Notes: generated from the sequence alone by a model not told the origin. A stretch of 64,000 nt of DNA from an uncultured Bacilli bacterium (GCA_934101185.1 CAKOQD010000002.1:11554-75553); one strand, 5' to 3'. Positions 4,275-50,902 are shown, counted from the stretch's first letter. A program made the numbers and translations.

Positions 4275-4484
4275 ATGAATCAAAACAAAGCAAATAGCAA
4301 GCTAGTAGTTCCAGGAGCTAAACAAGCTATCGAATCTATGAAATATGAAATAGCTAGAGAATTTGGTGTTACTTTAGGTCCAGATGCTACTTCAAGAGCT
4401 AATGGTTCAGTTGGTGGAGAAATCACTAAACGTTTAGTTGAAAGAGGAATGAATCAATTAAGCGGTGGAAACTACACTAAATAG
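4275..4484 (+). CDS. Alpha/beta-type small acid-soluble spore protein
   Basis: 69 aa. Conserved [10 protein letters not shown] and GGEITKRLV blocks. Confidence 0.92.
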
Positions 4485-6761: not shown

Positions 6762-6831
6762 CAAAAAATATTTAAAAAACAAAAGAAAAATAGTATAATT
6801 AACTTATAAAAAAATAAAGGAAGTGATCAAT

Positions 6832-8670
6832 ATGCATCCGAGTATACCTTTACTAATAGCAAGTTTAATTTATACTATTTTAATTTTTGTCCTATTTTGT
6901 AAAAAAGAAAAAGTAAAAACAGTAGAAAATAAAATATACTTTTCATTACTAATAACAGTAATAATAGGAATAATATTAGACATATGCGGAATATATTGTC
7001 ATTTATACCTACCAGATAATAGCTTTATAAGATGGTTTGTAGTAAAACTATATTTAGCCTACTTACTTGTATTTGTCTATTTAATAACCACATATGTTGT
7101 ATTAATATCCTATCATAAAGAAATGGCCCTAACAAAAGAAAAAGAACAAAGCAAAAAAGTAAAACACATATTAAACACTTTAAATATAATACTTGCAATA
7201 TCATTAATACTAAATTTCGTTTTAACATTTACATACTATAAAGAAGGAAACCAAGTATATCTATTTGGAAGCAATACAATCTATGTATATGGAATATCAG
7301 CACTAGGTATACTAAGTTGGATATACTTTGTAATAAAAAACAGAAAAAATATATCAATAAAAAAAATAGTACCAATAATGCTATTCGTAGCATTCTGTGT
7401 CCCAGTAATACTATTACAACTATCAAACCCACAAATACTAGTAGTCACATCATTAACAGCGTTTTTAGTTAACTTCATGTATCATACAATAGAAAACCCT
7501 GATACCCAAATAATAGATTTATTAACAAGAAATAAAGAACTTACTGAAAAATCAGTAAATGAAAAATCTAATTTCTTATTTAAAATATCACAAGAACTAA
7601 GAAAACCTATCAAAGATATATCTAAAGATATAAATCTATTAAAGGATGAAAATAATAAAGAAATAGAAAAAGAATTAATTGAACAAATAGATAATAATGC
7701 AAAATGTGCAAACTTTATAATAAATAATATTACTGATATAAGTAGTATGGATATAAAAAATAGTAATATAAAAGAAGACAATTATAATATAAAAAGATTA
7801 TTTAAAGACATAGAGTTAAGCACTAATAATAATCTAAAAAATAATAATAAAGATAGTAAGATAAAGTTTACTATAAAAGAAAATACTAGTTATCCAGAAA
7901 CTGTATATGGAGATAAGATTAAGTTAAAACAAATAATAATGTCTGTAATAAATAATTCAATAAAATACACCGATAATGGTCACATAGATTTAGAAATAGA
8001 TGCAATAGTAAGATATGATATGTGTAGATTTATATTTACAATAACAGATACAGGAATAGGAATGGACATAATTAAGGTAAATAAATTATTATCAAAAGAA
8101 GAAGAATTAAAAGACAATATAATCGAAGAGAATAATCTTAATTTAAGTATACCTATAGTAAAAAAACTATTAAAAATAGTCGGAGGAAATATAAATATAA
8201 CAAGTAAAGAAAATAAAGGTACAACAGTAACATTAGTAATAAATCAAGAAATAAACTATGATAGTACTGGTTTAATATTAAAAGATATAAATAACTATAG
8301 TAATCCTAAAAGAAAACTAAGAGTCCTTCTCGTGGACAATAATGATGAATTAGAAAGAGTAGAAAAGATTCTTGATGAAAGAGATATAGATAAAGTAGTA
8401 ACATTATTTGGACAAGATTGCATAGATAAGATAGAACATAATGAAGAATATGATTTAATAATAATAAAAGATGAGTTAAAAGAAGAAACAGCTTATGAAA
8501 TATTAAATAAATTAAAACAAATACCTAAGTTTAAAACGCCAGTAATAATTGCAATAGATAAAGAAAAAGAATTTATAAAAGATCATTTTATAAAAGATGG
8601 TTTTAAAGATTGTATTATTCTAAATGATGATAAAAAAGCCTTAGAAAAAACTCTAAATAAATATATTTAA
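6832..8670 (+). CDS. Membrane-bound hybrid histidine-kinase-like protein with degenerate phosphorelay residues
   Basis: About 6 N-terminal TM segments. The H-box reads FKISQELRKPI, with Gln where His is expected. It has an N-box NNSIKYT, a G-box DTGIGMD and a C-terminal receiver-like domain. ATG at 6832 follows the RBS aaggaag. Confidence 0.7.
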   Translation: MHPSIPLLIASLIYTILIFVLFCKKEKVKTVENKIYFSLLITVIIGIILDICGIYCHLYLPDNSFIRWFVVKLYLAYLLVFVYLITTYVVLISYHKEMALTKEKEQSKKVKHILNTLNIILAISLILNFVLTFTYYKEGNQVYLFGSNTIYVYGISALGILSWIYFVIKNRKNISIKKIVPIMLFVAFCVPVILLQLSNPQILVVTSLTAFLVNFMYHTIENPDTQIIDLLTRNKELTEKSVNEKSNFLFKISQELRKPIKDISKDINLLKDENNKEIEKELIEQIDNNAKCANFIINNITDISSMDIKNSNIKEDNYNIKRLFKDIELSTNNNLKNNNKDSKIKFTIKENTSYPETVYGDKIKLKQIIMSVINNSIKYTDNGHIDLEIDAIVRYDMCRFIFTITDTGIGMDIIKVNKLLSKEEELKDNIIEENNLNLSIPIVKKLLKIVGGNINITSKENKGTTVTLVINQEINYDSTGLILKDINNYSNPKRKLRVLLVDNNDELERVEKILDERDIDKVVTLFGQDCIDKIEHNEEYDLIIIKDELKEETAYEILNKLKQIPKFKTPVIIAIDKEKEFIKDHFIKDGFKDCIILNDDKKALEKTLNKYI

Positions 8671-11325: not shown

Positions 11326-11450
11326 TCTTTTCTTTTTTTGTAAACAAAATGTAAACAAACGTAAAAAACACATGTAAAATATACATTTTTTTCATTTTTA
11401 TTAAGGAATCCTATAATAATATGCGTTCAATATATACGAGAGGTGATAAA

Positions 11451-12638
11451 ATGAAAAAAATTTTCATAACAATATTGCTTGTTTTAATACCACTAAATGT
11501 ACAAGCAATAAATAATCAAACAACATTTAGTGAAACAAAACTATGCAAATACTATAAAGAAACCAAAGTATTTACAAACTACACAATCGAAGGAGAAAAC
11601 CCCAAAGAATATCCATTCAAAAGCAATGAACAAATTATAAAAAAATATGAAACAGAAATAAAACCAGAAGAAAAACCAAATAGAATAATACAAGAAGAAA
11701 CATATAATAACTATAATCCAATAAAAAAAATAAATAGAATAGTAACAAGATACGATATGGTTGGACTAGTCTATGAATTAGAAATCTATGAAAAAGATCA
11801 AAAACTAGACTATACACTATCATCAAACAATGATAACCAATATAAACATATAAATGACAATCAACTAAATCTATATGATAAAATAAATCTCAATTTTATA
11901 GATATCAATCTATCCCACGAAGTAGATCCATTAGATATAACTATAAAAATATACTTACGTAGATATTTTGATACTTTAGACATTTATACATACTTATTTC
12001 CAAAAGAATACACAAAAAAATTTAACATTATAGAAATAAAAAAAGAATATGATTACATAAATAATAGTAAAAAGATAACATTCGAAGATGATTACGAAGT
12101 AAGACCATATGAGATAAAAATAACACAAGAAGACATAAAAACATATAAATATAGCGATGAAATAATAACAACACAAGAAGAATTAGAAACACCACTATAT
12201 AACAAACTACCAAGTGCTAAAAAATATAAATATCAAGATACACTATTTAAATACTACAAAATAGAAAAAGAATACCAAGAAGGATACCATAAAACACTCG
12301 ATGGATACATAAAAGATGAAACAAAATGTATTAGTTCGTTCTCAGAACAAAAAAATAATATATTTGAAAAAATACCAGTAACAAAAAAGTTGCAAGCAAG
12401 TATCAAAGTAGACGCCAAAGAAGAAAAAACAGATACAAATACAAAAGAAATAACCAATACTAGTAATCTATTAGTATACAAAAAACAAATAAATACTAAA
12501 AAAGAAAATAATTTGTCGTACAAAGAATCAAAGAAAAAAACAAAAACCAACAAAATATTATACATACTCCCTGTTATAATCTTAAGCATAATATTCCTAT
12601 TAGGATATTTACTATATAACTTATTAAAGGAGAGATAA
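11451..12638 (+). CDS. Hypothetical exported protein with N-terminal signal sequence and C-terminal TM anchor
   Basis: MKKIFITILLVLIPLNVQA signal-like N-terminus, C-terminal ILYILPVIILSIIFLLGYLLY. RBS gagaggtga. No family recognised. Confidence 0.55.
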   Translation: MKKIFITILLVLIPLNVQAINNQTTFSETKLCKYYKETKVFTNYTIEGENPKEYPFKSNEQIIKKYETEIKPEEKPNRIIQEETYNNYNPIKKINRIVTRYDMVGLVYELEIYEKDQKLDYTLSSNNDNQYKHINDNQLNLYDKINLNFIDINLSHEVDPLDITIKIYLRRYFDTLDIYTYLFPKEYTKKFNIIEIKKEYDYINNSKKITFEDDYEVRPYEIKITQEDIKTYKYSDEIITTQEELETPLYNKLPSAKKYKYQDTLFKYYKIEKEYQEGYHKTLDGYIKDETKCISSFSEQKNNIFEKIPVTKKLQASIKVDAKEEKTDTNTKEITNTSNLLVYKKQINTKKENNLSYKESKKKTKTNKILYILPVIILSIIFLLGYLLYNLLKER

Positions 12639-12639
12639 A

Positions 12640-12975
12640 ATGTATAACATTGATATGGAATTTGTAAAAGGCATATTCATCATAAGACTAAGTGGAATAT
12701 TCAACAAAAATGCTTGCAACCAATTAGAACAAGATCTAGAACAATTAATAATAAAAAATGGTATAAAATATTTACTAATTAACCTAGAAAGCATTAAAAA
12801 AATAGATGCAAAAGCAATAGAAATAATCTTTGATAACTATATGAAACTGATAAAAAGAAATGGAAAACTAATAATATGTGGAATAAATAATCTATTTGAA
12901 AACAATAACATAATAACAAACAATCTATTACAAATAAAAGAAGAACAAGAAGTATTTGATTATGTAACACTATGA
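12640..12975 (+). CDS. spoIIAA: STAS-domain anti-sigma-factor antagonist (SpoIIAA-like) lacking the phosphorylatable Ser
   Basis: 111 aa. Aligns by eye with B. subtilis SpoIIAA; LNLEDLSFMDSSG corresponds to INLESIKKIDAKA here. Lies in the spoIIA-spoVA synteny. Confidence 0.65.
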   Translation: MYNIDMEFVKGIFIIRLSGIFNKNACNQLEQDLEQLIIKNGIKYLLINLESIKKIDAKAIEIIFDNYMKLIKRNGKLIICGINNLFENNNIITNNLLQIKEEQEVFDYVTL

Positions 12976-13616
12976 TAGATTTAAATGAATTAATAATACA
13001 AAATGAACCACTAATTTATTCCGTTATAAATAGATACAAAGAATATTTTGACATTGAAGACCTGTATCAAACCGCCGCAATTGGACTAATAAATGCCTAT
13101 AAAAACTATAAAAATGATAAACAAACCAAATTCTCATCATATGCCTATTTCTACATGAAAGGAGAAGTAAAAAAATATATAAGAGAAAGCAATACACTAA
13201 AAATAAGTAAAGAACTAATAAAACTAAACACATGTATAACAAAAGCTAAAGAAATTCTATATCAAAAACTAAATAGAGAACCAACTGATTTTGAATTATC
13301 ACTATTCTTAGAAATAGATGAAAGCCAAATAGCAAATGCTAAACTAGCCACATCATTAGTAGAATCTCTAGATAACGACATTGATGATGATTTATACAAC
13401 AAAATAGGATACATCCAAAAAGAATACGAAGGAGAAATACTAGATCTAAAAACAGAAATAAATAATCTGAAAGAACTAGAAAAACAAATAATAATATCAA
13501 GATATGAAGAAGGTTTAACTCAACAAGAAGTATCAAAACTATTAGGAATAAATCAAACTAAAGTATCAAGAGAAGAAACAAAAATATTACAAAAATTAAG
13601 AGATAGGTTGACATAA
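12972..13616 (+). CDS. sigF: Sigma-70 family sporulation sigma factor, divergent SigF-like
   Basis: 214 aa. Regions 2 (YQTAAIGLINAYKNY) and 4 (LTQQEVSKLLGINQTKVSR). Its start overlaps the STAS stop codon (ATGA). Followed by spoVAC/AD/AE. Confidence 0.65.
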   Translation: MIDLNELIIQNEPLIYSVINRYKEYFDIEDLYQTAAIGLINAYKNYKNDKQTKFSSYAYFYMKGEVKKYIRESNTLKISKELIKLNTCITKAKEILYQKLNREPTDFELSLFLEIDESQIANAKLATSLVESLDNDIDDDLYNKIGYIQKEYEGEILDLKTEINNLKELEKQIIISRYEEGLTQQEVSKLLGINQTKVSREETKILQKLRDRLT

Positions 13617-13669
13617 CCTATTTTTTGTATGAAAAAATATAAAAAAACCATAATAAAAATGGTGATAAA

Positions 13670-14113
13670 ATGAAACAAGAAAACTATGAAAAAATAGTAA
13701 AAACAAATCTACCAGATGAAAATAAACTGTCCAATGCCTTAATAGCTTTCTCAGTTGGAGGACTAATCGGAGCATTCGGGAACTTCCTAATAGAAATATA
13801 TTCATATCTATTTGAAATATCAAGAAACGACTCAGCAGTATTTATGATTATAACCCTCATCTTTATTGCATGCCTCTTAACAGCCATCGGAGTATTTGAT
13901 ACCTTTGTAAAAACAGGAAGAATGGGTCTTATAATACCAATAACAGGATTCGCACACTCTATGCAAAGTGCAATACTAGACTATAAAAACGAAGGTTTAA
14001 TCTATGGATTTGGTTCAAACATCTTTAAATTAGCGGGCTCAGTAATTCTATATGGAGTAGTATCATCATACTTCTTTGCTCTTATAAGATTCCTACTAGG
14101 AGTCGCCCTATGA
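13670..14113 (+). CDS. spoVAC: Stage V sporulation protein AC
   Basis: 147 aa. NALIAFSVGGLIGAFGN and a 4-TM pattern typical of SpoVAC. Confidence 0.88.
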   Translation: MKQENYEKIVKTNLPDENKLSNALIAFSVGGLIGAFGNFLIEIYSYLFEISRNDSAVFMIITLIFIACLLTAIGVFDTFVKTGRMGLIIPITGFAHSMQSAILDYKNEGLIYGFGSNIFKLAGSVILYGVVSSYFFALIRFLLGVAL

Positions 14114-15105
14114 CATTTGAATTTAATAACGTATACATAAAAAACACCTCAACAATATCAGGACCAATCGAAGCAAAAGGACCACTAAATAAATACTTTG
14201 ATAAGACTTATAAAGACTTTTATATAAATAGTAAATCATTAGAAAAATCAGAAGTAAACCTTCAAAAAGAAAGCATAGAAACTCTAATAGATAAAGAAAA
14301 TATTACAAAAGAACAAATAGATATATTAATATCCGGAGACTTACAAAATCAAATAACAGCATCATCATATGCAGCAAAAGACTATGAAATACCATTCATC
14401 GGAGTCTATAGTGCCTGTGCAACATCAACACAGTCAATAATACTTGCATCAACTATTCTAGAAAGCAAAAAAGCAAAAAACATTATATGTACAACAAGTT
14501 CAAATAACCTAGTATCAGAAAAACAATTTAGAAATCCAGTAGAATATGGTGCACCAAGTCCTAAAACAAAAACATTCACATCAACCGGAGGAGCATCAAT
14601 ACTATTAACAAATGAAAAAACAAATATAAAAATAACATCTGGTACAATAGGAAAAATAATAGATCTAAACCAAAATGATCCAAACCATATGGGAGCAGTA
14701 ATGGCACCAGCTGCCGCAGATACAATATATAATCATTTAAAAAACAACAATGAAAAAGTAAGCGATTATGATCTAATCCTAACCGGAGACCTAGGAATAT
14801 ATGGAAAAAAGATACTAAAAGAATACATGGACCAAAAATACAAGATAAAACTAGGGGAGAACTATGATGACTGTGGAACAATGCTATATGACATAAAAAA
14901 CCAAAAAGAAATAACCGCTGGGGGATCAGGACCAGTCTGTAGTGCCTTAGTAACCTATGGATACATATACAACGAAATGAAAAATAAAAATCTAAAAAAA
15001 GTTTTATTCGTAGCAACCGGTGCACTATTCTCACCAACATTCATATATCAAAAACAAAACATTCTATCAATTGCCCATGCAATAACAATGGAGGTGGTAA
15101 AATGA
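14110..15105 (+). CDS. spoVAD: Stage V sporulation protein AD
   Basis: 331 aa thiolase-like fold. STISGPIEAKGPL near the N-terminus. Translationally coupled to its neighbours. Confidence 0.88.
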   Translation: MTFEFNNVYIKNTSTISGPIEAKGPLNKYFDKTYKDFYINSKSLEKSEVNLQKESIETLIDKENITKEQIDILISGDLQNQITASSYAAKDYEIPFIGVYSACATSTQSIILASTILESKKAKNIICTTSSNNLVSEKQFRNPVEYGAPSPKTKTFTSTGGASILLTNEKTNIKITSGTIGKIIDLNQNDPNHMGAVMAPAAADTIYNHLKNNNEKVSDYDLILTGDLGIYGKKILKEYMDQKYKIKLGENYDDCGTMLYDIKNQKEITAGGSGPVCSALVTYGYIYNEMKNKNLKKVLFVATGALFSPTFIYQKQNILSIAHAITMEVVK

Positions 15106-15452
15106 GTTATATAACATCATTTCTATTCGTAGGGATACTATCTCTAATAGCACAATTAATATTAGATAAAACCAAACTATCCGCAGGACACATTACCAGC
15201 ATGTTCGTAGTAATAGGCTCATTCCTAGACACATTTAGTATATATGATAAAATAATACAACATGTTGGCGGAGGGGCACTAGTACCAATAACAAGCTTTG
15301 GTCATTTACTAATACATGGCGCACTAGAAAGAACCAATCAATCCGGTGCAACAGGTATCTTAATGGGAATGTTTGACCTTACTGCAACAGGAATAACAAG
15401 CGCAATTATCTTTAGTTTTGTATTTGCACTTATATTTAAACCAAGAAACTAA
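15102..15452 (+). CDS. spoVAE: Stage V sporulation protein AE (AEB-type)
   Basis: 116-aa membrane protein, FLFVGILSLIAQLILDKTKLSAGHI. Confidence 0.85.
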   Translation: MSYITSFLFVGILSLIAQLILDKTKLSAGHITSMFVVIGSFLDTFSIYDKIIQHVGGGALVPITSFGHLLIHGALERTNQSGATGILMGMFDLTATGITSAIIFSFVFALIFKPRN

Positions 15453-16904: not shown

Positions 16905-16991
16905 GCCTGCGTGGCGGAATTGGTAGACGCGCTGGACTCAAAATCCAGTGGTAGCAATATCGTGTGGGTTCGAGTCCCACCGCAGGCACCA
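16905..16991 (+). tRNA. tRNA-Leu, anticodon CAA, with encoded CCA
   Basis: Hand-folded cloverleaf. Acceptor gcctgcg/cgcaggc, D-arm gcgg-aattggtaga-cgc, anticodon stem ctgga/tccag with loop ctCAAaa, long variable arm, T-arm gtggg-ttcgagt-cccac, discriminator A plus CCA. Confidence 0.9.
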
Positions 16992-21627: not shown

Positions 21628-21633
21628 TTGTTC

Positions 21634-21892
21634 ATCGGCAATGACTAGGAATAGTAATTTTATAATTTATTTTAGAGAGTTATCGGTTGGTGAAAGATAA
21701 TATAAATTAAAAATGAAAGACACCTATGAGCTACTTGTTTGAAATTAATAGTAGAATAAGTCGGATGTAAACCGTTATCTCATTGAGTGATTATATATTT
21801 AATTTCTGTTTACATATATAATAAATTGGGTGGTACCGCGGATTATAACAGTTATTCGTCCCTTTGTGGATAATATAACTGTTTTTTATTAT
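21634..21892 (+). promoter_or_regulatory. T-box riboswitch leader, probable Asp (GAC) specifier
   Basis: AGAGAG bulge and GGTTGGTGAAAG distal loop in stem I. GAA-A-GAC-A in the specifier-loop position (GAC at 21719-21721). T-box sequence AATTGGGTGGTACCGCG (about 21824-21840). Terminator aacagttat...ataactgtt followed by T6. Confidence 0.8.
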
Positions 21893-21914: not shown

Positions 21915-23228
21915 ATGAAAAAAATATATTTTAAAAATTTAAATGAATATTTTGGACAAGAAATAACTATTGAAGGTTTTGTCGATAATATTCGTGATTT
22001 ACAATATGTTCAATTTTTAATTGTTAGAGACACTACAGGTAAGGTTCAAGTAACAATTGAAAAAAACGAAAATAATAGTAAATTAAATGAAATTGTTTCT
22101 AATTTAGCAATTGAAAGCACGGTTAAAATTATTGGAACATTATTTAAAAATGAGAAAGTTAAACTTAATGGAATGGAGCTAATACCAAACGATATATTTG
22201 TAACTAGTAAATGTTTGGAGGAATTACCTTTAAACTATAAAGATAGCAAGTCCGCACTATTGGATACTAGATTAAATTATAGATTTTTAGATTTAAGAAG
22301 TGAAAAAAATATTCTTATGTTTAAAGTTCAAACTTGTATGATTAATGCTATGAGAGAATTTGTTATAAAAAATAATTTTACAGAGATCCACACTCCTAAA
22401 ATTATTAGTGTAGCAAGTGAATCTGGCGCAGAAGTTTTTGAAGTAAAATACTTTGATAGAAAAGCATATTTAGCACAAAGTCCTCAATTTTATAAACAAA
22501 TGGCTATGTGTAGTGGTTTTGAAAAGGTATTTGAAATTGCACCAGCATTCAGAGCAGAAAACTCTAATTCATATAGACACACTACAGACTTTACATCATT
22601 CGATATTGAGATGAGTTATATCGAATCTTTAGAAGAACTTATGGATTTTGAAGAAGATTTATTTATTGCGGGGTTATCCGCAGTTAAAGAAAAATATGGG
22701 GAACAAATCAAAGAATTATTTAATGTAGATGTTATTATTCCTACTAAACCATTCCCAAGAATTAAGTTAGAAGAATTATATAAGGAATTAGAAAAAGAAT
22801 ATGATTTTAAAATGAATTATGAAGATGTTGGAGATATGAATGCAGAATCAGAGAGATTAGCATCTAAGTATGTTATGGAAAAATATGGGCATGAGTTTGT
22901 ATTTATAACAGACTTTAGTGCTAAAAAAAGAGCGTTCTATCATAAGAGAGAAAAAGGTATTCCACAAGGGGCTGACCTTATTTGGAAAGGCTGTGAAACA
23001 ACTACTTTAGCATTAAGAGAACATAACTATGAAACTTTATGTGAACAAGCTAAAGAAAAGGGATTAGGAGAAGATGTTAAGTTTTATCTTGAATTCTTTA
23101 AATATGGTTGTCCCCCTCATGGAGGATTTGCTCTTGGAGTAGATAGAATAACTATGCTATTATTAGAAACAGGTTCTTTAAAAGAAACAATGTTTATATT
23201 TAGAGGTCCTAGTAGAATAGAACCATAA
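21915..23228 (+). CDS. aspS: Aspartyl-tRNA synthetase, short archaeal/eukaryal-like type (AspRS2)
   Basis: 437 aa. OB-fold N-terminus. Class IIb motifs FRAENSNSYRHTTDFTSFDIEM and PPHGGFALGVDR. C-terminal FRGPSRIEP resembles the archaeal-type FPRD-x-x-R-L-x-P tail. The T-box specifier GAC agrees. Confidence 0.8.
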   Translation: MKKIYFKNLNEYFGQEITIEGFVDNIRDLQYVQFLIVRDTTGKVQVTIEKNENNSKLNEIVSNLAIESTVKIIGTLFKNEKVKLNGMELIPNDIFVTSKCLEELPLNYKDSKSALLDTRLNYRFLDLRSEKNILMFKVQTCMINAMREFVIKNNFTEIHTPKIISVASESGAEVFEVKYFDRKAYLAQSPQFYKQMAMCSGFEKVFEIAPAFRAENSNSYRHTTDFTSFDIEMSYIESLEELMDFEEDLFIAGLSAVKEKYGEQIKELFNVDVIIPTKPFPRIKLEELYKELEKEYDFKMNYEDVGDMNAESERLASKYVMEKYGHEFVFITDFSAKKRAFYHKREKGIPQGADLIWKGCETTTLALREHNYETLCEQAKEKGLGEDVKFYLEFFKYGCPPHGGFALGVDRITMLLLETGSLKETMFIFRGPSRIEP

Positions 23229-31073: not shown

Positions 31074-31201
31074 GCTCATCATTGATGAGTCTTTACTTTG
31101 TAAAATATAATAAACAATAACTATAAAACAAATGTCAACTTAACTATTTTCCTTTGGAAATAAATACTTTTAATGATATAATAAAAAAGGAGATGATGAA
31201 T

Positions 31202-33103
31202 ATGGCACTAAAATATGATGAAAATAGTATAAAAATACTCGAAGGACTAGACGCAGTAAGAAAAAGACCAGGTATGTACATTGGTTCAACAGATAAAAGA
31301 GGACTACATCACTTAGTCTGGGAAATCGTTGATAACTCTATAGATGAAGTAATAAATGGCTTTGGTAACTACATAAAAATAACCCTATATCCAGATGGTA
31401 GTGTTGAAGTAGAAGACCATGGACGTGGACTACCAACAGGAATGCACTCAAGTGGTAAATCAACCCCAGAAGTAATATTTACAATCCTACATGCTGGAGG
31501 AAAATTTGAAACAAGTGGATATAAAGTATCCGGAGGACTACACGGTGTAGGTTCATCAGTAGTAAATGCCTTATCAGAATGGCTTGAACTAACCATAAGA
31601 AGAGACGGTTATGAATATAATATGCGCTTTGAAAACGGCGGTAGAGTAGCAAAACCACTTACTAAAGTTGGAACTACAAATAAAACTGGTACAACAGTAA
31701 GATTTTTACCAGACAAAGAAATATTCCAAAGCATAAACTTCTCATACACAACAATCGCTGAAAGAATGCAAGAATCAGCATTTCTACTTAAAGGTCTAAC
31801 AATTGAATTAATTGATATTGAAGATAAAAAACACGATAAATTCTTTTATGAAGATGGACTATCAGCATTTGTAGAAATGATCAATGAAAACAAAACACCA
31901 CTTCATAAAGTCCACACAATAACAGGAACAAAAAATGATATTGAAGTCGATATTGCATTCCAATACACTGACTCATATAGTGAAAACATAATATCCTTCG
32001 TAAACAATGTAAAAACAACAGACGGAGGAACTCACGAAGTAGGATTTAAAACAGCACTTACTAAAGTCTTCAATGACTACGCCAAAAATAATAATTTCCT
32101 AAAAGCAAAAGACAAAGCATTTGATGGTTCCGATGTACGTGAAGGATTAACAGCCATTATATCATTAAAAATACCAGAATCATTACTACAATTCGAAGGA
32201 CAAACAAAATCAAAACTAGGAAGTCCAGTAGCAAGAACAGCAGTCGAATCAATCGCAACTGAAAAACTATCATTCTTTCTTGAAGAAAATAAAAAAGTTG
32301 CAACAGATATAATAGACAAATCACTAAAAAGTAAACTAGCTCGTGAAGCAGCAAGAAAAGCCCGTGAAGAAGTAAGAAAAGGAAAAAATAAAAATGCTAA
32401 AGAAAAATTAATGTCAGGAAAGCTTACTCCTGCTAGTAAAAAAGATAAAACAAAAAATGAACTATTCTTAGTCGAAGGAGACTCTGCCGGAGGATCAGCA
32501 AAACAAGGAAGAGATAGAAAATTCCAAGCGATCCTACCACTAAGAGGTAAAGTTTTAAATACCGAAAAAGCAAAATTCGAAGATATTCTAAAAAATGAAG
32601 AACTAAATACAATGATTTATACAATCGGCGCTGGATCAGGTTCTAACTTTGAAAAAGAAGATATAGAATATGACAAAGTAATAATAATGACCGATGCCGA
32701 TGACGATGGTGCCCATATTCAGTGCCTATTACTTACATTCTTCTATAGATATATGCGCCCATTAATTGAACTAGGAAAACTATACATTGCTATGCCACCA
32801 TTATTTAAAATAACAAGTGGTAAACAAGTAGATTACGCTTACACCAATGAAGAACTAAGAGAAAAAACAAAAGATAAGAAATGTGAGATTCAAAGATATA
32901 AAGGATTAGGTGAAATGAATGCCGAACAACTATGGGAAACAACAATGAATCCACTCACAAGAACACTTGTAAAAGTAAACATTGATGATGCATCGCTCGC
33001 AGAAAAAAGAGTAAGCGTTCTAATGGGAGACAAAGTAGAACCAAGAAAAGAATGGATTGAAGAAAACGTTGAATTCTCATTAGAAGACGATTATAAAATA
33101 TAA
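31202..33103 (+). CDS. Type IIA DNA topoisomerase subunit B (ParE or GyrB)
   Basis: LEGLDAVRKRPGMYIGST, GHKL ATPase, Toprim (EGDSAGG, DADDDGAHI). No adjacent A subunit, so ParE versus GyrB is not resolved. ATG at 31202 follows the RBS aaggaga. Confidence 0.85.
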   Translation: MALKYDENSIKILEGLDAVRKRPGMYIGSTDKRGLHHLVWEIVDNSIDEVINGFGNYIKITLYPDGSVEVEDHGRGLPTGMHSSGKSTPEVIFTILHAGGKFETSGYKVSGGLHGVGSSVVNALSEWLELTIRRDGYEYNMRFENGGRVAKPLTKVGTTNKTGTTVRFLPDKEIFQSINFSYTTIAERMQESAFLLKGLTIELIDIEDKKHDKFFYEDGLSAFVEMINENKTPLHKVHTITGTKNDIEVDIAFQYTDSYSENIISFVNNVKTTDGGTHEVGFKTALTKVFNDYAKNNNFLKAKDKAFDGSDVREGLTAIISLKIPESLLQFEGQTKSKLGSPVARTAVESIATEKLSFFLEENKKVATDIIDKSLKSKLAREAARKAREEVRKGKNKNAKEKLMSGKLTPASKKDKTKNELFLVEGDSAGGSAKQGRDRKFQAILPLRGKVLNTEKAKFEDILKNEELNTMIYTIGAGSGSNFEKEDIEYDKVIIMTDADDDGAHIQCLLLTFFYRYMRPLIELGKLYIAMPPLFKITSGKQVDYAYTNEELREKTKDKKCEIQRYKGLGEMNAEQLWETTMNPLTRTLVKVNIDDASLAEKRVSVLMGDKVEPRKEWIEENVEFSLEDDYKI

Positions 33104-43424: not shown

Positions 43425-46250
43425 ATGAATTTTATAAAAAATAATTATAAAAAAATAACTCCATTTGTAGTAATAATGTTAATAGCGATAATCTCGTATT
43501 CAGCTACACAATCATCATATGCCCAAACAACTACAAAAACGTTTACAAGACAAGAAATACAAGACATGATAGTATCCACTGCAACAAGTTACCTAAGAAA
43601 CAACACATATTCAGACTACGATCAACATTCAATGGATGCATCATCTACATATAATGGTTCATCAATTACAACATTCAACTGGAGAGACTTTAACATAACA
43701 CCAGAAATGGTAAGTAGAACCAATAACTTCCATGATGACTGTAGTAGTTTCGTAACACAAGTATTAATAAACTCAATAGACTATGACTTCTCAAATTACT
43801 ATAACTATACATCAAATACATTCTACTTATTTAAAAACTTTACTTACACACAGTCTAAGTCATCAAAAACGACATTTATCGAAGGCTATAAAAGAACAGG
43901 AAAAAGTATTTCAACATTCTTCTTCAATAAATTAGCAAACTCTATAGCAAACGTATCTAAAGGAACAGAATATAAAAATGATACAGACTTTGTAAACTAT
44001 TATTATGAATTCACTGGAAGTGAAACAACATCTAAAAGAAATACTGTAATCTCAAGCGTTAAACAAAGACTACAAAAAGGAGACATCGTAGTATATAGAC
44101 ACACAACATCATCAGGAAGTGCTGGAGGACACGTTATGGTCTATGCCGGAGACTTCTACGACAACAATGGTACAAAAATGACTGGATTCATTCATTCAAC
44201 AGGAAAAAGCTATGACTTTACAACAGAAACACTAAATAGAGATAAATATGCAGTACAAACAGGTACAATGACTGTTAAAATAGATGATATAATAAACGAT
44301 ACCAAAACAACATCATACATGATTCTAAGACCAATAAACTATTACTGCTCATCAAAAGATTCATGCAGTCTAACCGTACCAAACAATTCATTAGCAAGAC
44401 CATCTATGAAAGAATTAAAAATAGAACAATACATATCAAAAGACAATAAAGATATTTCAAAATACAACAGTGTCAATATTAATGATACACTTACATATAA
44501 TTTAGATATAAAAAATATTAAAATAAACCCAATAAAAAACATTACAATAACCGCAGAAACACCAAGCAATACAACCTATGTTAGTTGTAATAATGATTGT
44601 AAATATAACAACAATGAAATAACTTGGACACTAGGTAATAATAGTAATATAACAAGCAATACATATAGTTATACAGTAAAAGTAGATAAACAAACAACAA
44701 TTACTAATACAGGTTTTAAAATAAAAAATCCTGATAATACAATCCTTCAAATGAGTGAATTAAATACCAATATAAATCCAAGTATTAATAATGAACTAGA
44801 TACTAATGTATTAACAAGTATAATAAAACTATCCCAAGAATTAAATAAAAATGGATATCTAACATACGGAACAAGTACAAACAATAACATTTATAAAACA
44901 GACATCACTACTATAAATGAAAATAATAAAGTAACAATCTCATCAGTAGACTATATAAAGTTCTTATACTACAATGCCTATGGAATAGACTTAAGTACCA
45001 TGACAAAAGATAATATAAAAACATCACTATTTAATACTCAAAGCAGTCTATACTCTAGAAAAACTACTAATAGTGATGCTATATCACAAATGCTTGTACC
45101 AGGACTATATGGAGGAAGACTACTTAAAGGAAATGATAACAACGACCGTACAAGATTTATGGTACCAAGCGATCTTGAATTTGGAGACATAGTAACATTC
45201 TACACATCAAATGCAACTCTAATAAATATATATATCTATCTAGGTCAAGAAAATAACTATCCAACATTCTTAAGAATAGCAAGTGATAACACAATAACAA
45301 AACTAACAAACACATCAGCAGAAGAACTATTTAATTCACTATATGCTAAAAGTCTATTTGCAATATTTAGACCTACAAGATACTATGGAGTAACAATAAC
45401 CCTACAAGACAATAATAAAAAAGATCATATAACCCTAGCTAAAAACACAACCTATAGAAATCTACCAATAATAGAAAAAAAATACACTGTAACATATGAA
45501 TATAACACAACACCTGATAATGAAAACAAAGAAAAAGATATAATTGATGATATATTCGATGGATGGTATAAAGGCTCTACAAAAGTAGATGAAAAAACAA
45601 CAATTACTGATCAAATGCCACATACACTAACAGCAAAATATACAAATAAAGAAATAACATTACCAACACCAATAAAAAATGGGTTCAAGTTCTTAGGATG
45701 GTACAAAGACTCAACTCTACAAAATAAAGCATCACAAACTAATAAATATACACCACAAAGTGATATAACACTATATGCTAAATGGGAAGAAGAACAACCA
45801 GACCCATCACCAGAACCACCAAAAGAATTTGACATAACATCAGATGAATTCACTATAAAAGATGGCTATATCTACTTAAAAGAAAATAATAAAGAGTTTA
45901 CAAGCTATATAAATAAATTAAAATATGATAAATCATTTAACTATAACTTAAAACTATATGATAACAATAAAGAAATAACAAATAATATAGTATTTACAGG
46001 ATCTAAACTAAAAGCAATAGACAATGACACAGTAATAAAAGAATATATAAACATTGTAAAAGGTGATGTTAATAAAACAGGAACAGTAACAATGGCAGAC
46101 GTTATGAAACTAGTAGACTATCTATTTGATAACGACACGATGACTGAAGACTATAACCTAAAAGCAGGAGATGTCAATAATACTAACACAGTAACAATGG
46201 CCGATGTTATGAAACTAGTAGACTACATTCTAGAAGGAGGAGAACTATGA
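43425..46250 (+). CDS. Large secreted protein: NlpC/P60-like cysteine peptidase domain, beta-rich middle, two Listeria-Bacteroides (Flg_new) repeats, C-terminal type I dockerin
   Basis: Signal peptide. DDCSSFV (Cys) and GGHVMVYAGD (His). FDGWYKGST and FLGWYKDST repeats. Duplicated Ca-loop/helix GDVN(K/N)T(G/N)TVTMADVMKLVDY(L/I). 38-nt DNA repeat at 46084-46121 / 46189-46226. Confidence 0.75.
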   Translation: MNFIKNNYKKITPFVVIMLIAIISYSATQSSYAQTTTKTFTRQEIQDMIVSTATSYLRNNTYSDYDQHSMDASSTYNGSSITTFNWRDFNITPEMVSRTNNFHDDCSSFVTQVLINSIDYDFSNYYNYTSNTFYLFKNFTYTQSKSSKTTFIEGYKRTGKSISTFFFNKLANSIANVSKGTEYKNDTDFVNYYYEFTGSETTSKRNTVISSVKQRLQKGDIVVYRHTTSSGSAGGHVMVYAGDFYDNNGTKMTGFIHSTGKSYDFTTETLNRDKYAVQTGTMTVKIDDIINDTKTTSYMILRPINYYCSSKDSCSLTVPNNSLARPSMKELKIEQYISKDNKDISKYNSVNINDTLTYNLDIKNIKINPIKNITITAETPSNTTYVSCNNDCKYNNNEITWTLGNNSNITSNTYSYTVKVDKQTTITNTGFKIKNPDNTILQMSELNTNINPSINNELDTNVLTSIIKLSQELNKNGYLTYGTSTNNNIYKTDITTINENNKVTISSVDYIKFLYYNAYGIDLSTMTKDNIKTSLFNTQSSLYSRKTTNSDAISQMLVPGLYGGRLLKGNDNNDRTRFMVPSDLEFGDIVTFYTSNATLINIYIYLGQENNYPTFLRIASDNTITKLTNTSAEELFNSLYAKSLFAIFRPTRYYGVTITLQDNNKKDHITLAKNTTYRNLPIIEKKYTVTYEYNTTPDNENKEKDIIDDIFDGWYKGSTKVDEKTTITDQMPHTLTAKYTNKEITLPTPIKNGFKFLGWYKDSTLQNKASQTNKYTPQSDITLYAKWEEEQPDPSPEPPKEFDITSDEFTIKDGYIYLKENNKEFTSYINKLKYDKSFNYNLKLYDNNKEITNNIVFTGSKLKAIDNDTVIKEYINIVKGDVNKTGTVTMADVMKLVDYLFDNDTMTEDYNLKAGDVNNTNTVTMADVMKLVDYILEGGEL

Positions 46251-50131: not shown

Positions 50132-50902
50132 ATGAGTAAATATAAAGTAGATATAACAGGACTAAATACAAATAGTATTAAAGTCCTAACCCAAGAAGAA
50201 ATGGAAGAACTATTTATAAAAATGCAACAAGGAGATCAAAATGCAAGAGATGAATTAATACATGGTAATCTAAAACTAGTACTATCAATTCTAAAAAGAT
50301 TCAATAAAAAAGATGAAAACTTAGACGATCTCTTTCAAATTGGATGCATTGGACTAATAAAAGCAATAGATAACTTTGATCTATCATACCAAGTAAAGTT
50401 CTCAACATATTGTGTTCCAATGGTAATGGGAGAAGTAAGAAGATACCTAAGAGATAACAATAGCATAAGAGTAAGCCGAAGTATAAAAGATACAGCCTAT
50501 AAAATATTAAAACTAAAAGATGAACTAACTATAAAAAATGGAAAAGAACCAACAGATGATGAATTAGCTAAACTATTAGAAATAGATAAAGCAGAACTAG
50601 CATTAGCACTAGATTCATTAAGACAACCAGTAAGCTTATTTGAACCAATATACAATGATGGGGGAGACACTATCTATTTATTTGATCAAATTGAAGATAA
50701 AAAAAATAATAACGACCTAGACATCCGATTAGCGGTCAATAAAGCAATAGAAAATCTAACAGAAAGAGAACAATACATAATAGATCAAAGATTCATAATA
50801 GGAAAAACCCAAATGGAAATAGCGCAAGAACTAGATATATCACAAGCACAAATATCTAGAATAGAAAAAACAGCACTACAAAGAATAAGAAAACAACTAT
50901 AA
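50132..50902 (+). CDS. sigG: Sporulation sigma factor SigG
   Basis: Strong by-eye identity to B. subtilis SigG (DDLFQIGCIGLIKAIDNFDLSYQVKFSTYCVPMVMGEVRRYLRDNNSIRVSRS). RBS aggtga before the ATG at 50132. Confidence 0.88.
   Translation: MSKYKVDITGLNTNSIKVLTQEEMEELFIKMQQGDQNARDELIHGNLKLVLSILKRFNKKDENLDDLFQIGCIGLIKAIDNFDLSYQVKFSTYCVPMVMGEVRRYLRDNNSIRVSRSIKDTAYKILKLKDELTIKNGKEPTDDELAKLLEIDKAELALALDSLRQPVSLFEPIYNDGGDTIYLFDQIEDKKNNNDLDIRLAVNKAIENLTEREQYIIDQRFIIGKTQMEIAQELDISQAQISRIEKTALQRIRKQL

What the first reader, a model, noticed from the sequence alone, without database searches (positions are those of the whole stretch)
12640..13616. spoIIA-like operon without spoIIAB, and a SpoIIAA homolog lacking the phospho-Ser
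The canonical order is spoIIAA-spoIIAB-sigF followed by spoVA. Here the STAS gene stop overlaps the sigma gene start (ATGA at 12972), so there is no room for the anti-sigma kinase SpoIIAB. In a by-eye alignment the SpoIIAA phospho-acceptor (D-S58-S-G) corresponds to D56-A57-K-A (GCA at 12808-12810). The sigma factor is short (214 aa) and far more divergent than the well-conserved SigG at 50132. Together this suggests a rewired or simplified forespore sigma-activation switch.
Basis: partly seen in the sequence, partly recalled or inferred. Interest (0 to 1): 0.65.

Follow-up and report, generated by a model that had tools for sequence, protein, structure and literature searches.

The report
Sigma-F operon lacking SpoIIAB kinase
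An uncultured gut bacterium (RF39-type Bacilli), like at least 80 related species, keeps the first forespore sigma-factor operon but has lost the anti-sigma kinase SpoIIAB and the phosphorylated serine of its partner SpoIIAA, so the textbook switch that starts spore-specific gene expression cannot work here as described.

Summary
A 111-aa STAS gene (12640-12975) ends in ATGA on the start of a 214-aa sigma gene (12972-13616), with no gene between them. spoVAC/AD/AE follow.

- **STAS protein:** by sequence and predicted fold it is closest to SpoIIAA. Ala57 (GCA 12808-12810) sits where the phospho-Ser58 should be.
- **Sigma factor:** it is closest to sigma-F but scores far below the family cut-offs. 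The window's SigG is canonical.

The same spoIIAB-less arrangement occurs in all 80 related species found, which are RF39-type "Bacilli/Mycoplasma/Tenericutes" MAGs.
- Only 17 of 181 clade STAS proteins have Ser or Thr at the acceptor position.
- STAS is under purifying selection (dN/dS about 0.02-0.34), yet it was lost at least five times.
- Spo0A boxes precede the operon in 43 of 78 loci. A sigma-G/F-type promoter precedes spoVAC in 34 of 71.
- No SpoIIAB-like ORF was found in 885 kb of clade DNA.

A 2024 gene-content survey already listed spoIIAB and spoIIE as reduced or absent in RF39, so the loss itself is partly known. The Ser-less, translationally coupled STAS and its repeated loss appear to be new.

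I could not test whole-genome absence for this organism. The present role of the STAS protein is unresolved. I rate this a new variant of a known system.

The parts
11421..12638 (+). Unknown protein with a signal peptide and a C-terminal membrane anchor. It is 405 aa from the first ATG. The likely real start is 11451, giving the 395 aa of the public gene calls. Its stop lies 1 nt before the STAS start, so it is probably co-transcribed with STAS and sigma.
   Evidence: ORF. No Pfam or NCBIfam hit. Homologues lie directly upstream of STAS in L010/11/20, L021, L037, L040, L044 and L049. The best sigma-70-like promoter match is at 11389-11417, but promoter matches in this region are no more frequent than chance.
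12640..12975 (+). SpoIIAA-derived STAS-domain protein, 111 aa, with a strong Shine-Dalgarno sequence (AAGGAGAG) upstream.
   Evidence: Pfam STAS 2e-10. TIGR02886 gives 42 bits against a cut-off of 115. PDB hit 1AUZ at 3e-9. AF2 model has pLDDT 84 and pTM 0.80. Its best fold matches are SpoIIAA chains 1TID/1TH8/1THN, TM 0.81-0.84. dN/dS is 0.02-0.34.
12808..12810 (+). Codon GCA = Ala57, at the position of the phospho-acceptor Ser58 of SpoIIAA (N-terminus of helix 2).
   Evidence: Ungapped HMMER alignment to 1AUZ. Sequence. This column holds Ser/Thr in only 17 of 181 clade proteins.
12972..12975 (+). ATGA overlap of the STAS stop and the sigma start. There is no Shine-Dalgarno sequence before the sigma ATG, so the two genes are inferred to be translationally coupled.
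   Evidence: The -4 overlap is conserved in about 35 species loci. Loci with a gap of +7 to +9 nt, or with no STAS gene, carry AAGGAGG before the sigma gene instead.
12972..13616 (+). Divergent, short sigma-F-type sigma factor, 214 aa. Regions 2, 3 and 4 are present. It lacks about 26 N-terminal residues compared with sigma-F of 1L0O.
   Evidence: It is 36% identical to the window's SigG. The clade is monophyletic in an NJ tree.
13627..13655 (+). Forespore-type (sigma-G/sigma-F consensus) promoter-like site, GTATG-N17-CATAATA, upstream of spoVAC.
   Evidence: The pattern GHATR-N17-18-CATNHTA occurs within 120 nt upstream of spoVAC in 34 of 71 loci. About 0.007 per locus would be expected by chance. 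The consensus itself is recalled from the B. subtilis literature.
13670..14113 (+). spoVAC
   Evidence: PF03862 1.9e-30; TIGR02838 144 bits.
14110..15105 (+). spoVAD
   Evidence: PF07451 4e-121; NF006160 410 bits, above its cut-off of 402.
15102..15452 (+). spoVAE (SpoVAEB type)
   Evidence: TIGR02839 128 bits.
50132..50902 (+). Canonical sigG. It is context for the operon: it shows that the second forespore sigma factor is well conserved in the same genome.
   Evidence: NF006071 gives 370 bits against a cut-off of 372, with the alignment starting at ORF residue 17.

Best explanation
This is the spoIIA (sigma-F) locus of an uncultured, AT-rich, RF39-type gut member of the Bacilli, in a reduced form.

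Shown:
- The operon encodes a SpoIIAA-derived STAS protein whose stop overlaps the start of a divergent sigma-F orthologue.
- spoIIAB is deleted from the operon in the whole clade.
- The STAS protein has lost the conserved phospho-acceptor.
- Both genes are under purifying selection.
- spoVAC/AD/AE follow, behind a forespore-type promoter.
- In most relatives the operon sits behind Spo0A boxes.

Inferred:
- The SpoIIE / SpoIIAA-P / SpoIIAB phosphorylation-driven partner switch does not operate here.
- Sigma-F activity is set mainly by synthesis, through Spo0A-dependent transcription and translation coupled to the STAS ORF.
- The STAS protein survives as a kinase-independent accessory regulator of this sigma. 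Its partner is unknown.
- STAS is useful enough to be conserved but dispensable enough to have been lost at least five times.
For: - **Identity of the genes:**
- **Arrangement:** it is conserved on 18 contigs of this species and in 80 species representatives. STAS lies directly upstream of the sigma gene in about 64 of them, and nothing is ever inserted between the two.
- **No SpoIIAB-like ORF:** phmmer --max at E<=50 found none in 885 kb (window plus 80 loci). The query was validated first: it hits SpoIIAB 1TIL at 2e-68 and RsbW at 8e-14. Pfam on the rest of the window shows no SpoIIAB or PP2C/SpoIIE.
- **Acceptor column:** E40 D33 K19 N15 Y13 S11 T6 and others among 181 clade proteins. It is still variable across 131 clusters at 50% identity.
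- **Selection:** dN/dS for STAS is 0.02-0.34, similar to the sigma gene and spoVAD.
- **Spo0A boxes:** 43 of 78 loci have one, against 0.033 expected per 300 nt.
- **Forespore promoter:** 34 of 71 loci have the sigma-G/F-type site before spoVAC, against 0.007 expected.
- **dacF-like gene:** it lies directly upstream of the sigma gene in L078, as in the B. subtilis dacF-spoIIA arrangement (the B. subtilis layout is from memory).
- **STAS loss:** at least five independent events.
Against: - I could not scan the whole genome. Proteins in this clade evolve fast: its own sigma-F and SpoIIAA fall far below the family cut-offs. A divergent or non-homologous anti-sigma elsewhere could therefore have been missed, both here and in the KO-based survey, whose genome list as held here shows only 5 RF39 entries.
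- The window itself has no perfect Spo0A box near the operon, and its promoter is undefined.
- Sporulation has never been observed in RF39. One classifier gives RF39 MAGs a 0% sporulation probability (PMC12536801).
- Strong purifying selection on STAS shows it has a function, but that function is not identified.
Confidence: 0.7

Rival explanations
1. The STAS protein has itself become the direct binding partner of this sigma factor, acting as a kinase-free anti-sigma or a holder/chaperone. It would be made in fixed ratio with the sigma through translational coupling. Forespore-specific activation would come from differential stability or from transient gene asymmetry rather than from phosphorylation.
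For: - The ATGA coupling with no Shine-Dalgarno sequence before the sigma gene is typical of stoichiometric partners.
- The pair stays adjacent in about 64 of 80 species although the only known SpoIIAA partners are gone.
- STAS is under purifying selection.
Against: - I know of no precedent for a SpoIIAA-type protein binding sigma-F directly.
- A mirror-tree test shows no STAS-sigma co-evolution beyond shared phylogeny: partial r = 0.06, p = 0.15.
- STAS was lost at least five times with no obvious change in the sigma factor.
- Only two STAS residues are invariant across the clade.
Confidence: 0.2
2. A divergent SpoIIAB/RsbW-like or non-homologous anti-sigma is encoded elsewhere in the genome. 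The STAS protein would still be its antagonist but would be controlled without phosphorylation, as reported for the non-phosphorylated mycobacterial anti-anti-sigma-F RsfA.
For: - Proteins in this clade are so divergent that curated models miss them. SigF scores 136 bits against a cut-off of 321, and SpoIIAA scores 42 against 115.
- Many STAS homologues here lack even a Pfam call.
- I examined only 64 kb of this genome.
- Non-phosphorylated antagonists exist in other partner-switching systems (PMC8256260, and my memory of Beaucher et al. 2002).
Against: - The published survey finds spoIIAB reduced or absent in RF39.
- No HATPase_c-type small protein occurs in 885 kb around the locus in 80 species.
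- The loop that contacts SpoIIAB is free to vary, even to Asp/Glu. In canonical SpoIIAA those residues mimic the inactive phospho-form (the mimic effect is from memory).
- STAS is repeatedly lost.
Confidence: 0.15
3. The pair is not a working sigma-F module. Either it is a SigB-like or other alternative-sigma unit unrelated to sporulation, or it is a decaying relic in a lineage that no longer forms spores.
For: - All equivalog cut-offs are missed.
- RF39 has no cultured spore-former.
- The SpoMAG classifier scores RF39 MAGs as non-sporulating.
- Several core genes (spoIIE, spoVD, spoVB) are reported reduced or absent.
Against: - HMM ranking is SigF (136 bits) > SigG (107) > SigB (72). The best PDB hit is sigma-F.
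- Synteny with spoVAC/AD/AE holds in nearly all loci.
- Spo0A boxes and forespore-type promoters are strongly enriched.
- ORFs are intact with dN/dS well below 1 in more than 80 species.
- The same window has a canonical sigG and an alpha/beta SASP gene.
Confidence: 0.07

Closest known systems
B. subtilis / clostridial spoIIA operon (spoIIAA-spoIIAB-sigF) with the SpoIIE phosphatase
   Same: - The STAS protein is closest in sequence and fold to SpoIIAA.
- The sigma factor is closest to sigma-F.
- The operon lies directly upstream of spoVA genes.
- Relatives have Spo0A boxes upstream, and one relative has a dacF-like gene upstream.
   Different: - There is no spoIIAB.
- The phospho-acceptor Ser is replaced and not conserved.
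- The sigma factor is shorter and very divergent.
- The STAS and sigma genes are translationally coupled.
- STAS is dispensable in several sub-lineages.
- SpoIIE is reported absent or reduced in the order.
Published gene-content observation for order RF39 (PMC10868615, Microb Genom 2024)
   Same: [quoted passage not shown]
   Different: That study works only at KO presence/absence level on a few high-quality genomes. It does not describe the retained SpoIIAA-like gene, the loss of its phospho-site, the coupling to sigF, the promoter elements or the repeated STAS loss.
Non-phosphorylated anti-anti-sigma factors and non-canonical STAS-only proteins (mycobacterial RsfA; V. fischeri SypA; review PMC8256260)
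   Same: These are single-domain STAS proteins that act without the canonical phospho-cycle, or on partners other than a kinase anti-sigma.
   Different: RsfA still works through an RsbW-type anti-sigma (UsfX/RsbW1), and SypA is still phosphorylated by SypE. Here no kinase or anti-sigma partner is detectable, and the context is the sporulation sigma-F locus.

Membership tests
spoIIA partner-switching module (SpoIIAA / SpoIIAB / sigma-F) | STAS-domain anti-anti-sigma homologous to SpoIIAA | tested here: met
   Pfam STAS 40.7 bits, above the cut-off of 22.6. Best PDB sequence hit is SpoIIAA 1AUZ at 3e-9. The AF2 model is closest to SpoIIAA chains, TM 0.81-0.84. It falls below the TIGR02886 equivalog cut-off, 42 against 115.
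spoIIA partner-switching module (SpoIIAA / SpoIIAB / sigma-F) | Conserved phosphorylatable Ser (Ser58 in the D-S-S-G loop) on the STAS protein | tested here: not met
   The window has Ala57 at this position. Only 17 of 181 clade proteins have Ser/Thr there, and the column is highly variable.
spoIIA partner-switching module (SpoIIAA / SpoIIAB / sigma-F) | GHKL-type anti-sigma kinase SpoIIAB encoded between the STAS and sigma genes | tested here: not met
   The ATGA overlap leaves no room for it. No locus in 80 species has an inserted gene. No SpoIIAB-like ORF was found in 885 kb.
spoIIA partner-switching module (SpoIIAA / SpoIIAB / sigma-F) | SpoIIAB and the SpoIIE (PP2C) phosphatase present somewhere in the genome | not testable with these tools
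   Only 64 kb of this genome is available, and neither gene is in it. The literature reports both as reduced or absent in RF39.
spoIIA partner-switching module (SpoIIAA / SpoIIAB / sigma-F) | Spo0A-dependent promoter (0A boxes) upstream of the operon | tested here: inconclusive
   A perfect TGTCGAA/TTCGACA box occurs within 300 nt upstream in 43 of 78 related loci, against 0.033 expected. The window has none near the operon; the nearest is a one-mismatch TGTCGTA at 12515.
spoIIA partner-switching module (SpoIIAA / SpoIIAB / sigma-F) | Synteny with spoVA (and dacF) as in Bacilli and Clostridia | tested here: met
   spoVAC/AD/AE lie 53 nt downstream in the window and downstream in nearly all loci. 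A Peptidase_S11 dacF-like gene lies directly upstream of the sigma gene in L078.
Sporulation sigma factor SigF (NCBIfam TIGR02885 equivalog; SigB/F/G subfamily TIGR02980) | Score at or above the curated cut-off | tested here: not met
   TIGR02885 gives 136 bits against a cut-off of 321. TIGR02980 gives 148 against 234. These are still the two best-scoring families, ahead of SigG (107) and SigB (72).
Sporulation sigma factor SigF (NCBIfam TIGR02885 equivalog; SigB/F/G subfamily TIGR02980) | Sigma-70 regions 2, 3 and 4 present, with closest solved relative sigma-F | tested here: met
   Pfam r2, r3 and r4 all exceed their cut-offs. 1L0O chain C (sigma-F) hits at E 4e-25; the next-best hit is at 3e-14.
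GTDB order RF39 (taxonomic placement of the window) | Close relatives assigned to RF39 | tested here: inconclusive
   The clade includes 'Mycoplasma sp. CAG:611' (L088) and many 'uncultured Mycoplasma/Tenericutes/Bacilli' MAGs. Family CAG-611 is placed in RF39 (PMC8035907). I did not run a direct GTDB classification of the window.

The most novel reading that the evidence does not exclude
A whole order-level clade of gut Bacilli may run endospore-type forespore gene expression with a two-gene sigma-F module. In this reading a Ser-less SpoIIAA descendant controls sigma-F directly, without kinase, phosphatase or anti-sigma. That would be a minimal, phosphorylation-free solution to compartment-specific sigma activation, and it would show that SpoIIAB and SpoIIE are not universal requirements for sporulation.
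Probability: 0.15. Interest if true: 0.8.

Novelty: new variant of a known kind. Interest (0 to 1): 0.55.

Why it matters
SpoIIE, SpoIIAA, SpoIIAB and sigma-F form the paradigm for how asymmetric division is turned into cell-specific transcription. [quoted passage not shown] One recent classifier even finds spoIIAB in all of its predicted spore-formers.

Here a large, widespread gut clade keeps sigF, sigG, spoVA, SASP genes and Spo0A-controlled promoters under selection. It has nevertheless discarded the kinase and the phospho-site.
- If these bacteria sporulate, they do so by another activation route.
- If they do not, they use the forespore sigma cascade for something else.

Either answer bears on the minimal sporulation gene set. 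It also bears on how sporulation capacity is predicted from MAGs, because RF39 is currently scored as non-sporulating partly for lack of these genes. Finally, it bears on transmission of a common but uncultured human gut lineage.

Tried and rejected
- **Single-sequence STAS search.** It found only 7 relatives. I recovered the family through the genomic context of the sigma homologues and then through profiles.
- **Whole-genome search for SpoIIAB/SpoIIE.** Not possible. The one genome-contig scan went on defining the clade, and protein searches cannot be restricted to one genome. I relied on 885 kb of local context plus the literature.
- **KO table of PMC10868615.** The supplement as stored is truncated and holds no spoIIA entries.
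- **Mirror-tree co-evolution of STAS and sigma, controlling for SpoVA proteins.** No signal: partial r 0.06, p 0.15. This is a weak test, so the result is inconclusive rather than negative.
- **Spo0A box and sigma-70 promoter scans in the window.** Both were at chance level, so the window's own promoter is undefined.
- **Fused STAS-linker-sigma AlphaFold prediction.** I prepared the pairs but did not submit.
- **Genetic code 4 (TGA = Trp).** Some public gene calls of this locus read through TGA. I rejected this reading. All long conserved ORFs are intact under code 11, and TGA ends 5 of 48 long + strand ORFs. It would add only one residue to STAS in any case.
- **The upstream 405-aa protein as a replacement anti-sigma.** Rejected. 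It has a signal peptide, a C-terminal anchor and a cytoplasmic tail of only about 3 residues.

Full report
**1. What is in the sequence**

The window is about 27% G+C. On the + strand, rpsO and pnp are followed by these genes:
- An ORF of 405 aa, or 395 aa from the likely start at 11451. It has a signal peptide and a C-terminal membrane anchor and ends at 12638.
- A 111-aa ORF at 12640-12975.
- A 214-aa ORF at 12972-13616. The 111-aa ORF's TGA stop overlaps this ORF's ATG (ATGA).
- After 53 nt, spoVAC (13670-14113), spoVAD (14110-15105) and spoVAE (15102-15452).
- Then scpA and scpB.

The 111-aa protein is a STAS domain (Pfam E 2e-10). Its best NCBIfam family is the SpoIIAA equivalog, but at 42 bits against a cut-off of 115. 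Its best PDB sequence match is B. subtilis SpoIIAA (1AUZ, E 3e-9). The alignment is ungapped and places window D56-A57-K58-A59 on D57-S58-S59-G60. Codon 12808-12810 is GCA. An AlphaFold2 model built on 121 homologues has pLDDT 84 and pTM 0.80, with helix 2 starting at residue 57. It is closest to the SpoIIAA chains of the SpoIIAB complexes 1TID, 1TIL, 1TH8 and 1THN (TM 0.80-0.84), ahead of RsbV and RsbS.

The 214-aa protein has sigma-70 regions 2, 3 and 4.
- Its best families are SigB/F/G (148 bits, cut-off 234) and SigF (136 bits, cut-off 321). SigG (107) and SigB (72) score lower.
- Its best PDB match is sigma-F of 1L0O (E 4e-25). The alignment starts at sigma-F residue 31.
- It is 36% identical to the window's own SigG.
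- SigG, by contrast, is canonical: 370 bits on the SigG equivalog, cut-off 372.

**2. Not an accident of one contig**

The identical sigma protein is on 18 metagenome contigs, from Hadza and other human gut samples, always in the same arrangement. Sigma homologues of 54-96% identity carry the same order of genes, STAS(111 aa)-sigma-spoVAC-AD-AE-scpAB. These include contigs of 539 kb and 857 kb and the NCBI MAG GCA_051872415.1.

A scan of GTDB species-representative genomes with the clade profile returned 80 loci. They are titled 'Bacilli bacterium', 'uncultured Mycoplasma sp.', 'Tenericutes UMGS1449' and 'Mycoplasma sp. CAG:611'. GTDB family CAG-611 belongs to order RF39 (PMC8035907). I therefore place the clade in or around RF39, by inference.

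My ORF and phmmer analysis of these loci shows:
- STAS lies directly upstream of the sigma gene in about 64 of 80. About 35 have the -4 overlap, and most others have a gap of +7 to +9 nt containing an AAGGAGG Shine-Dalgarno sequence.
- No gene is ever inserted between STAS and sigma.
- In 16 loci there is no STAS gene at all, and the sigma gene has its own Shine-Dalgarno sequence.
- On an NJ tree of the sigma proteins, the STAS-less loci fall into at least five separate groups.

**3. Is SpoIIAB really gone?**

It hits SpoIIAB 1TIL at 2e-68 and also detects RsbW at 8e-14. With phmmer --max at E<=50 it finds nothing in any ORF of 40 aa or more across the window plus 80 species loci, 885 kb in all.

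Pfam and NCBIfam scans of the other long ORFs in the window show HATPase_c only in a hybrid histidine kinase (6823-8670) and a GyrB/ParE-type protein (31154-33103). They show no PP2C/SpoIIE.

I could not scan the whole genome. [quoted passage not shown] There is a caveat. That survey is KO-based, and its genome list as held here shows only 5 RF39 entries. This clade's own SigF and SpoIIAA fall well below curated thresholds, so a divergent anti-sigma could escape such a screen.

**4. The phospho-site**

The strongest internal evidence that no kinase acts on this STAS protein is evolutionary.
- In 181 unique clade STAS proteins, the Ser58 column reads E40, D33, K19, N15, Y13, S11, F9, M8, L7, T6, A5 and others. 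The preceding acidic residue is kept in 172 of 181.
- An exhaustive profile search of 1.84 billion representative proteins finds 211 clusters at E<=1e-10. The same column stays variable across the 131 best full-length representatives.
- NCBI names these proteins 'hypothetical protein', and many lack even a Pfam STAS call.

**5. Functional or decaying?**

Nei-Gojobori dN/dS on 20 species pairs is 0.02-0.34 for STAS. That is the same range as for the sigma gene and spoVAD. STAS is therefore a selected protein, not a spacer ORF kept only for coupling.

The regulatory signals also look alive.
- A perfect Spo0A box (TGTCGAA or TTCGACA) lies within 300 nt upstream of the first gene of the operon in 43 of 78 loci, against 0.033 expected. 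It typically sits at -50 to -60, often with a second box 26 nt further upstream.
- In the L023-L042 group the reverse box overlaps the -35 of a conserved promoter-like element.
- A sigma-G/F-type promoter (GHATR-N17-18-CATNHTA; consensus from memory) precedes spoVAC in 34 of 71 loci, against 0.007 expected. This includes the window at 13627-13655.
- In L078 a Peptidase_S11 (dacF-like) gene lies directly upstream of the sigma gene, recalling the dacF-spoIIA arrangement of B. subtilis (the B. subtilis layout is from memory).
- The window also has an alpha/beta SASP gene at 4275-4484.

Together these results support orthology with the spoIIA locus and a maintained forespore-type programme.

The window itself has no perfect Spo0A box near the operon, and sigma-70-like promoter matches there are at chance level. 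In the window's sub-clade, STAS follows the upstream membrane-protein gene by 1 nt. The three genes are probably one transcription unit with an undefined promoter. The best match is at 11389-11417.

**6. How it most likely works**

Shown:
- The kinase gene is missing from the operon.
- The acceptor residue is gone.
- STAS and sigma are conserved and, in the window's group, translationally coupled.
- STAS is dispensable in several lineages.

Inferred:
- The SpoIIE / SpoIIAA-P / SpoIIAB partner switch does not operate.
- Sigma-F activity is governed mainly by when and how much is made, through Spo0A-dependent transcription and coupled translation.
- STAS acts as a kinase-independent accessory factor whose partner is unknown.

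A direct STAS-sigma interaction is the most interesting sub-hypothesis, but it has no positive support. A mirror-tree test controlling for SpoVA proteins gave a partial r of 0.06, p = 0.15. An anti-sigma elsewhere in the genome remains possible. The idea that the pair is unrelated to sporulation, or is a relic, is poorly supported.

**7. Comparison with what is known, and novelty**

This works like a stripped-down spoIIA operon. As a member of the canonical partner-switching module it fails two defining features that I tested: the phospho-Ser and spoIIAB.

[quoted passage not shown] Turicibacter, an Erysipelotrichia-type gut spore-former, has all three spoIIA genes. The order-level absence of spoIIAB and spoIIE in RF39 was already noted in 2024, so the loss itself is not new.

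What appears new:
- The retained, Ser-less SpoIIAA-derived family, large and mostly unannotated.
- Its translational coupling to sigF.
- The conserved Spo0A and forespore promoters.
- The repeated secondary loss of STAS.

Whether RF39 sporulates at all is disputed. PMC10868615 predicts that it does. SpoMAG gives it 0% probability.

I rate this a new variant of a known kind, of moderate-to-good interest.

Noticed in passing
window 12972-12975, 14111-14113, 15103-15105; loci L001-L010: Several public (ENA) gene calls for this locus read through TGA as if under genetic code 4: STAS 112-114 aa, SpoVAC 156 aa, SpoVAD 334-346 aa. Under code 11 all long conserved ORFs are intact, and TGA ends 5 of 48 long + strand ORFs. 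The code-4 calls therefore look like an annotation artefact for this AT-rich 'Mycoplasma-like' lineage.
   Followed up: partly
window 11421-12638: An unknown protein of about 400 aa, with a signal peptide and a C-terminal anchor, ends 1 nt before the STAS start. Homologues sit in the same position in several sub-lineages (L010/11/20, L021, L037, L040, L044, L049). It has no Pfam or NCBIfam family. It may be a sporulation-associated surface protein co-transcribed with sigF.
   Followed up: partly
L047, L048, L059-L064, L066, L068, L074, L075, L078, L085-L087: In these species the sigma-F-like gene has no STAS gene upstream. It follows unrelated genes such as a putative dUTPase or a diacylglycerol-kinase-like gene, still with a Spo0A box and spoVA downstream. 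STAS was lost at least five times independently.
   Followed up: yes
L078:3910-5064: A D-Ala-D-Ala carboxypeptidase gene (Peptidase_S11 + PBP5_C, dacF-like) lies directly upstream of the sigma gene, as in the dacF-spoIIA arrangement of B. subtilis.
   Followed up: partly
window 13627-13655: A sigma-G/F-type promoter-like site, GTATG-N17-CATAATA, lies upstream of spoVAC. The motif is conserved in 34 of 71 related loci.
   Followed up: yes
window 4275-4484: An alpha/beta-type small acid-soluble spore protein gene (69 aa, PF00269 in public calls). PMC10868615 states that SASPs were lost in the ancestors of these orders.
   Followed up: no
window 6823-8670: A hybrid histidine kinase (615 aa) lies three genes upstream of the operon. 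In close relatives the corresponding gene is split (L002) or is a 528-aa protein with no Pfam call (L010/L011). It is a variable locus and a possible sporulation-initiating kinase.
   Followed up: no
window 21632-21866 and 16905-16991: A T-box leader (146 bits) lies upstream of a class II Asp/Asn/Lys-type aminoacyl-tRNA synthetase gene (21915-23228). A tRNA-Leu(CAA) gene lies after scpB.
   Followed up: no
window 43425-48172: Two large secreted proteins. The 941-aa protein has NlpC/P60, DUF11, Listeria-Bacteroides repeat and dockerin domains. The 641-aa protein has four cadherin-like domains. A dockerin in an RF39-type genome is unexpected.
   Followed up: no
proteins P0346, P0356, P0359, P0371, P0378, P0382: Large proteins of 563-1511 aa, each with three separate stretches matching the clade STAS profile. 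Their origin is unknown, and they have not been characterised here.
   Followed up: no
literature: Published predictions disagree on whether RF39 sporulates. PMC10868615 predicts spore formation with altered regulation. SpoMAG (PMC12536801) gives RF39 MAGs 0% probability, and spoIIAB is one of the nine genes it finds in all predicted spore-formers.
   Followed up: partly
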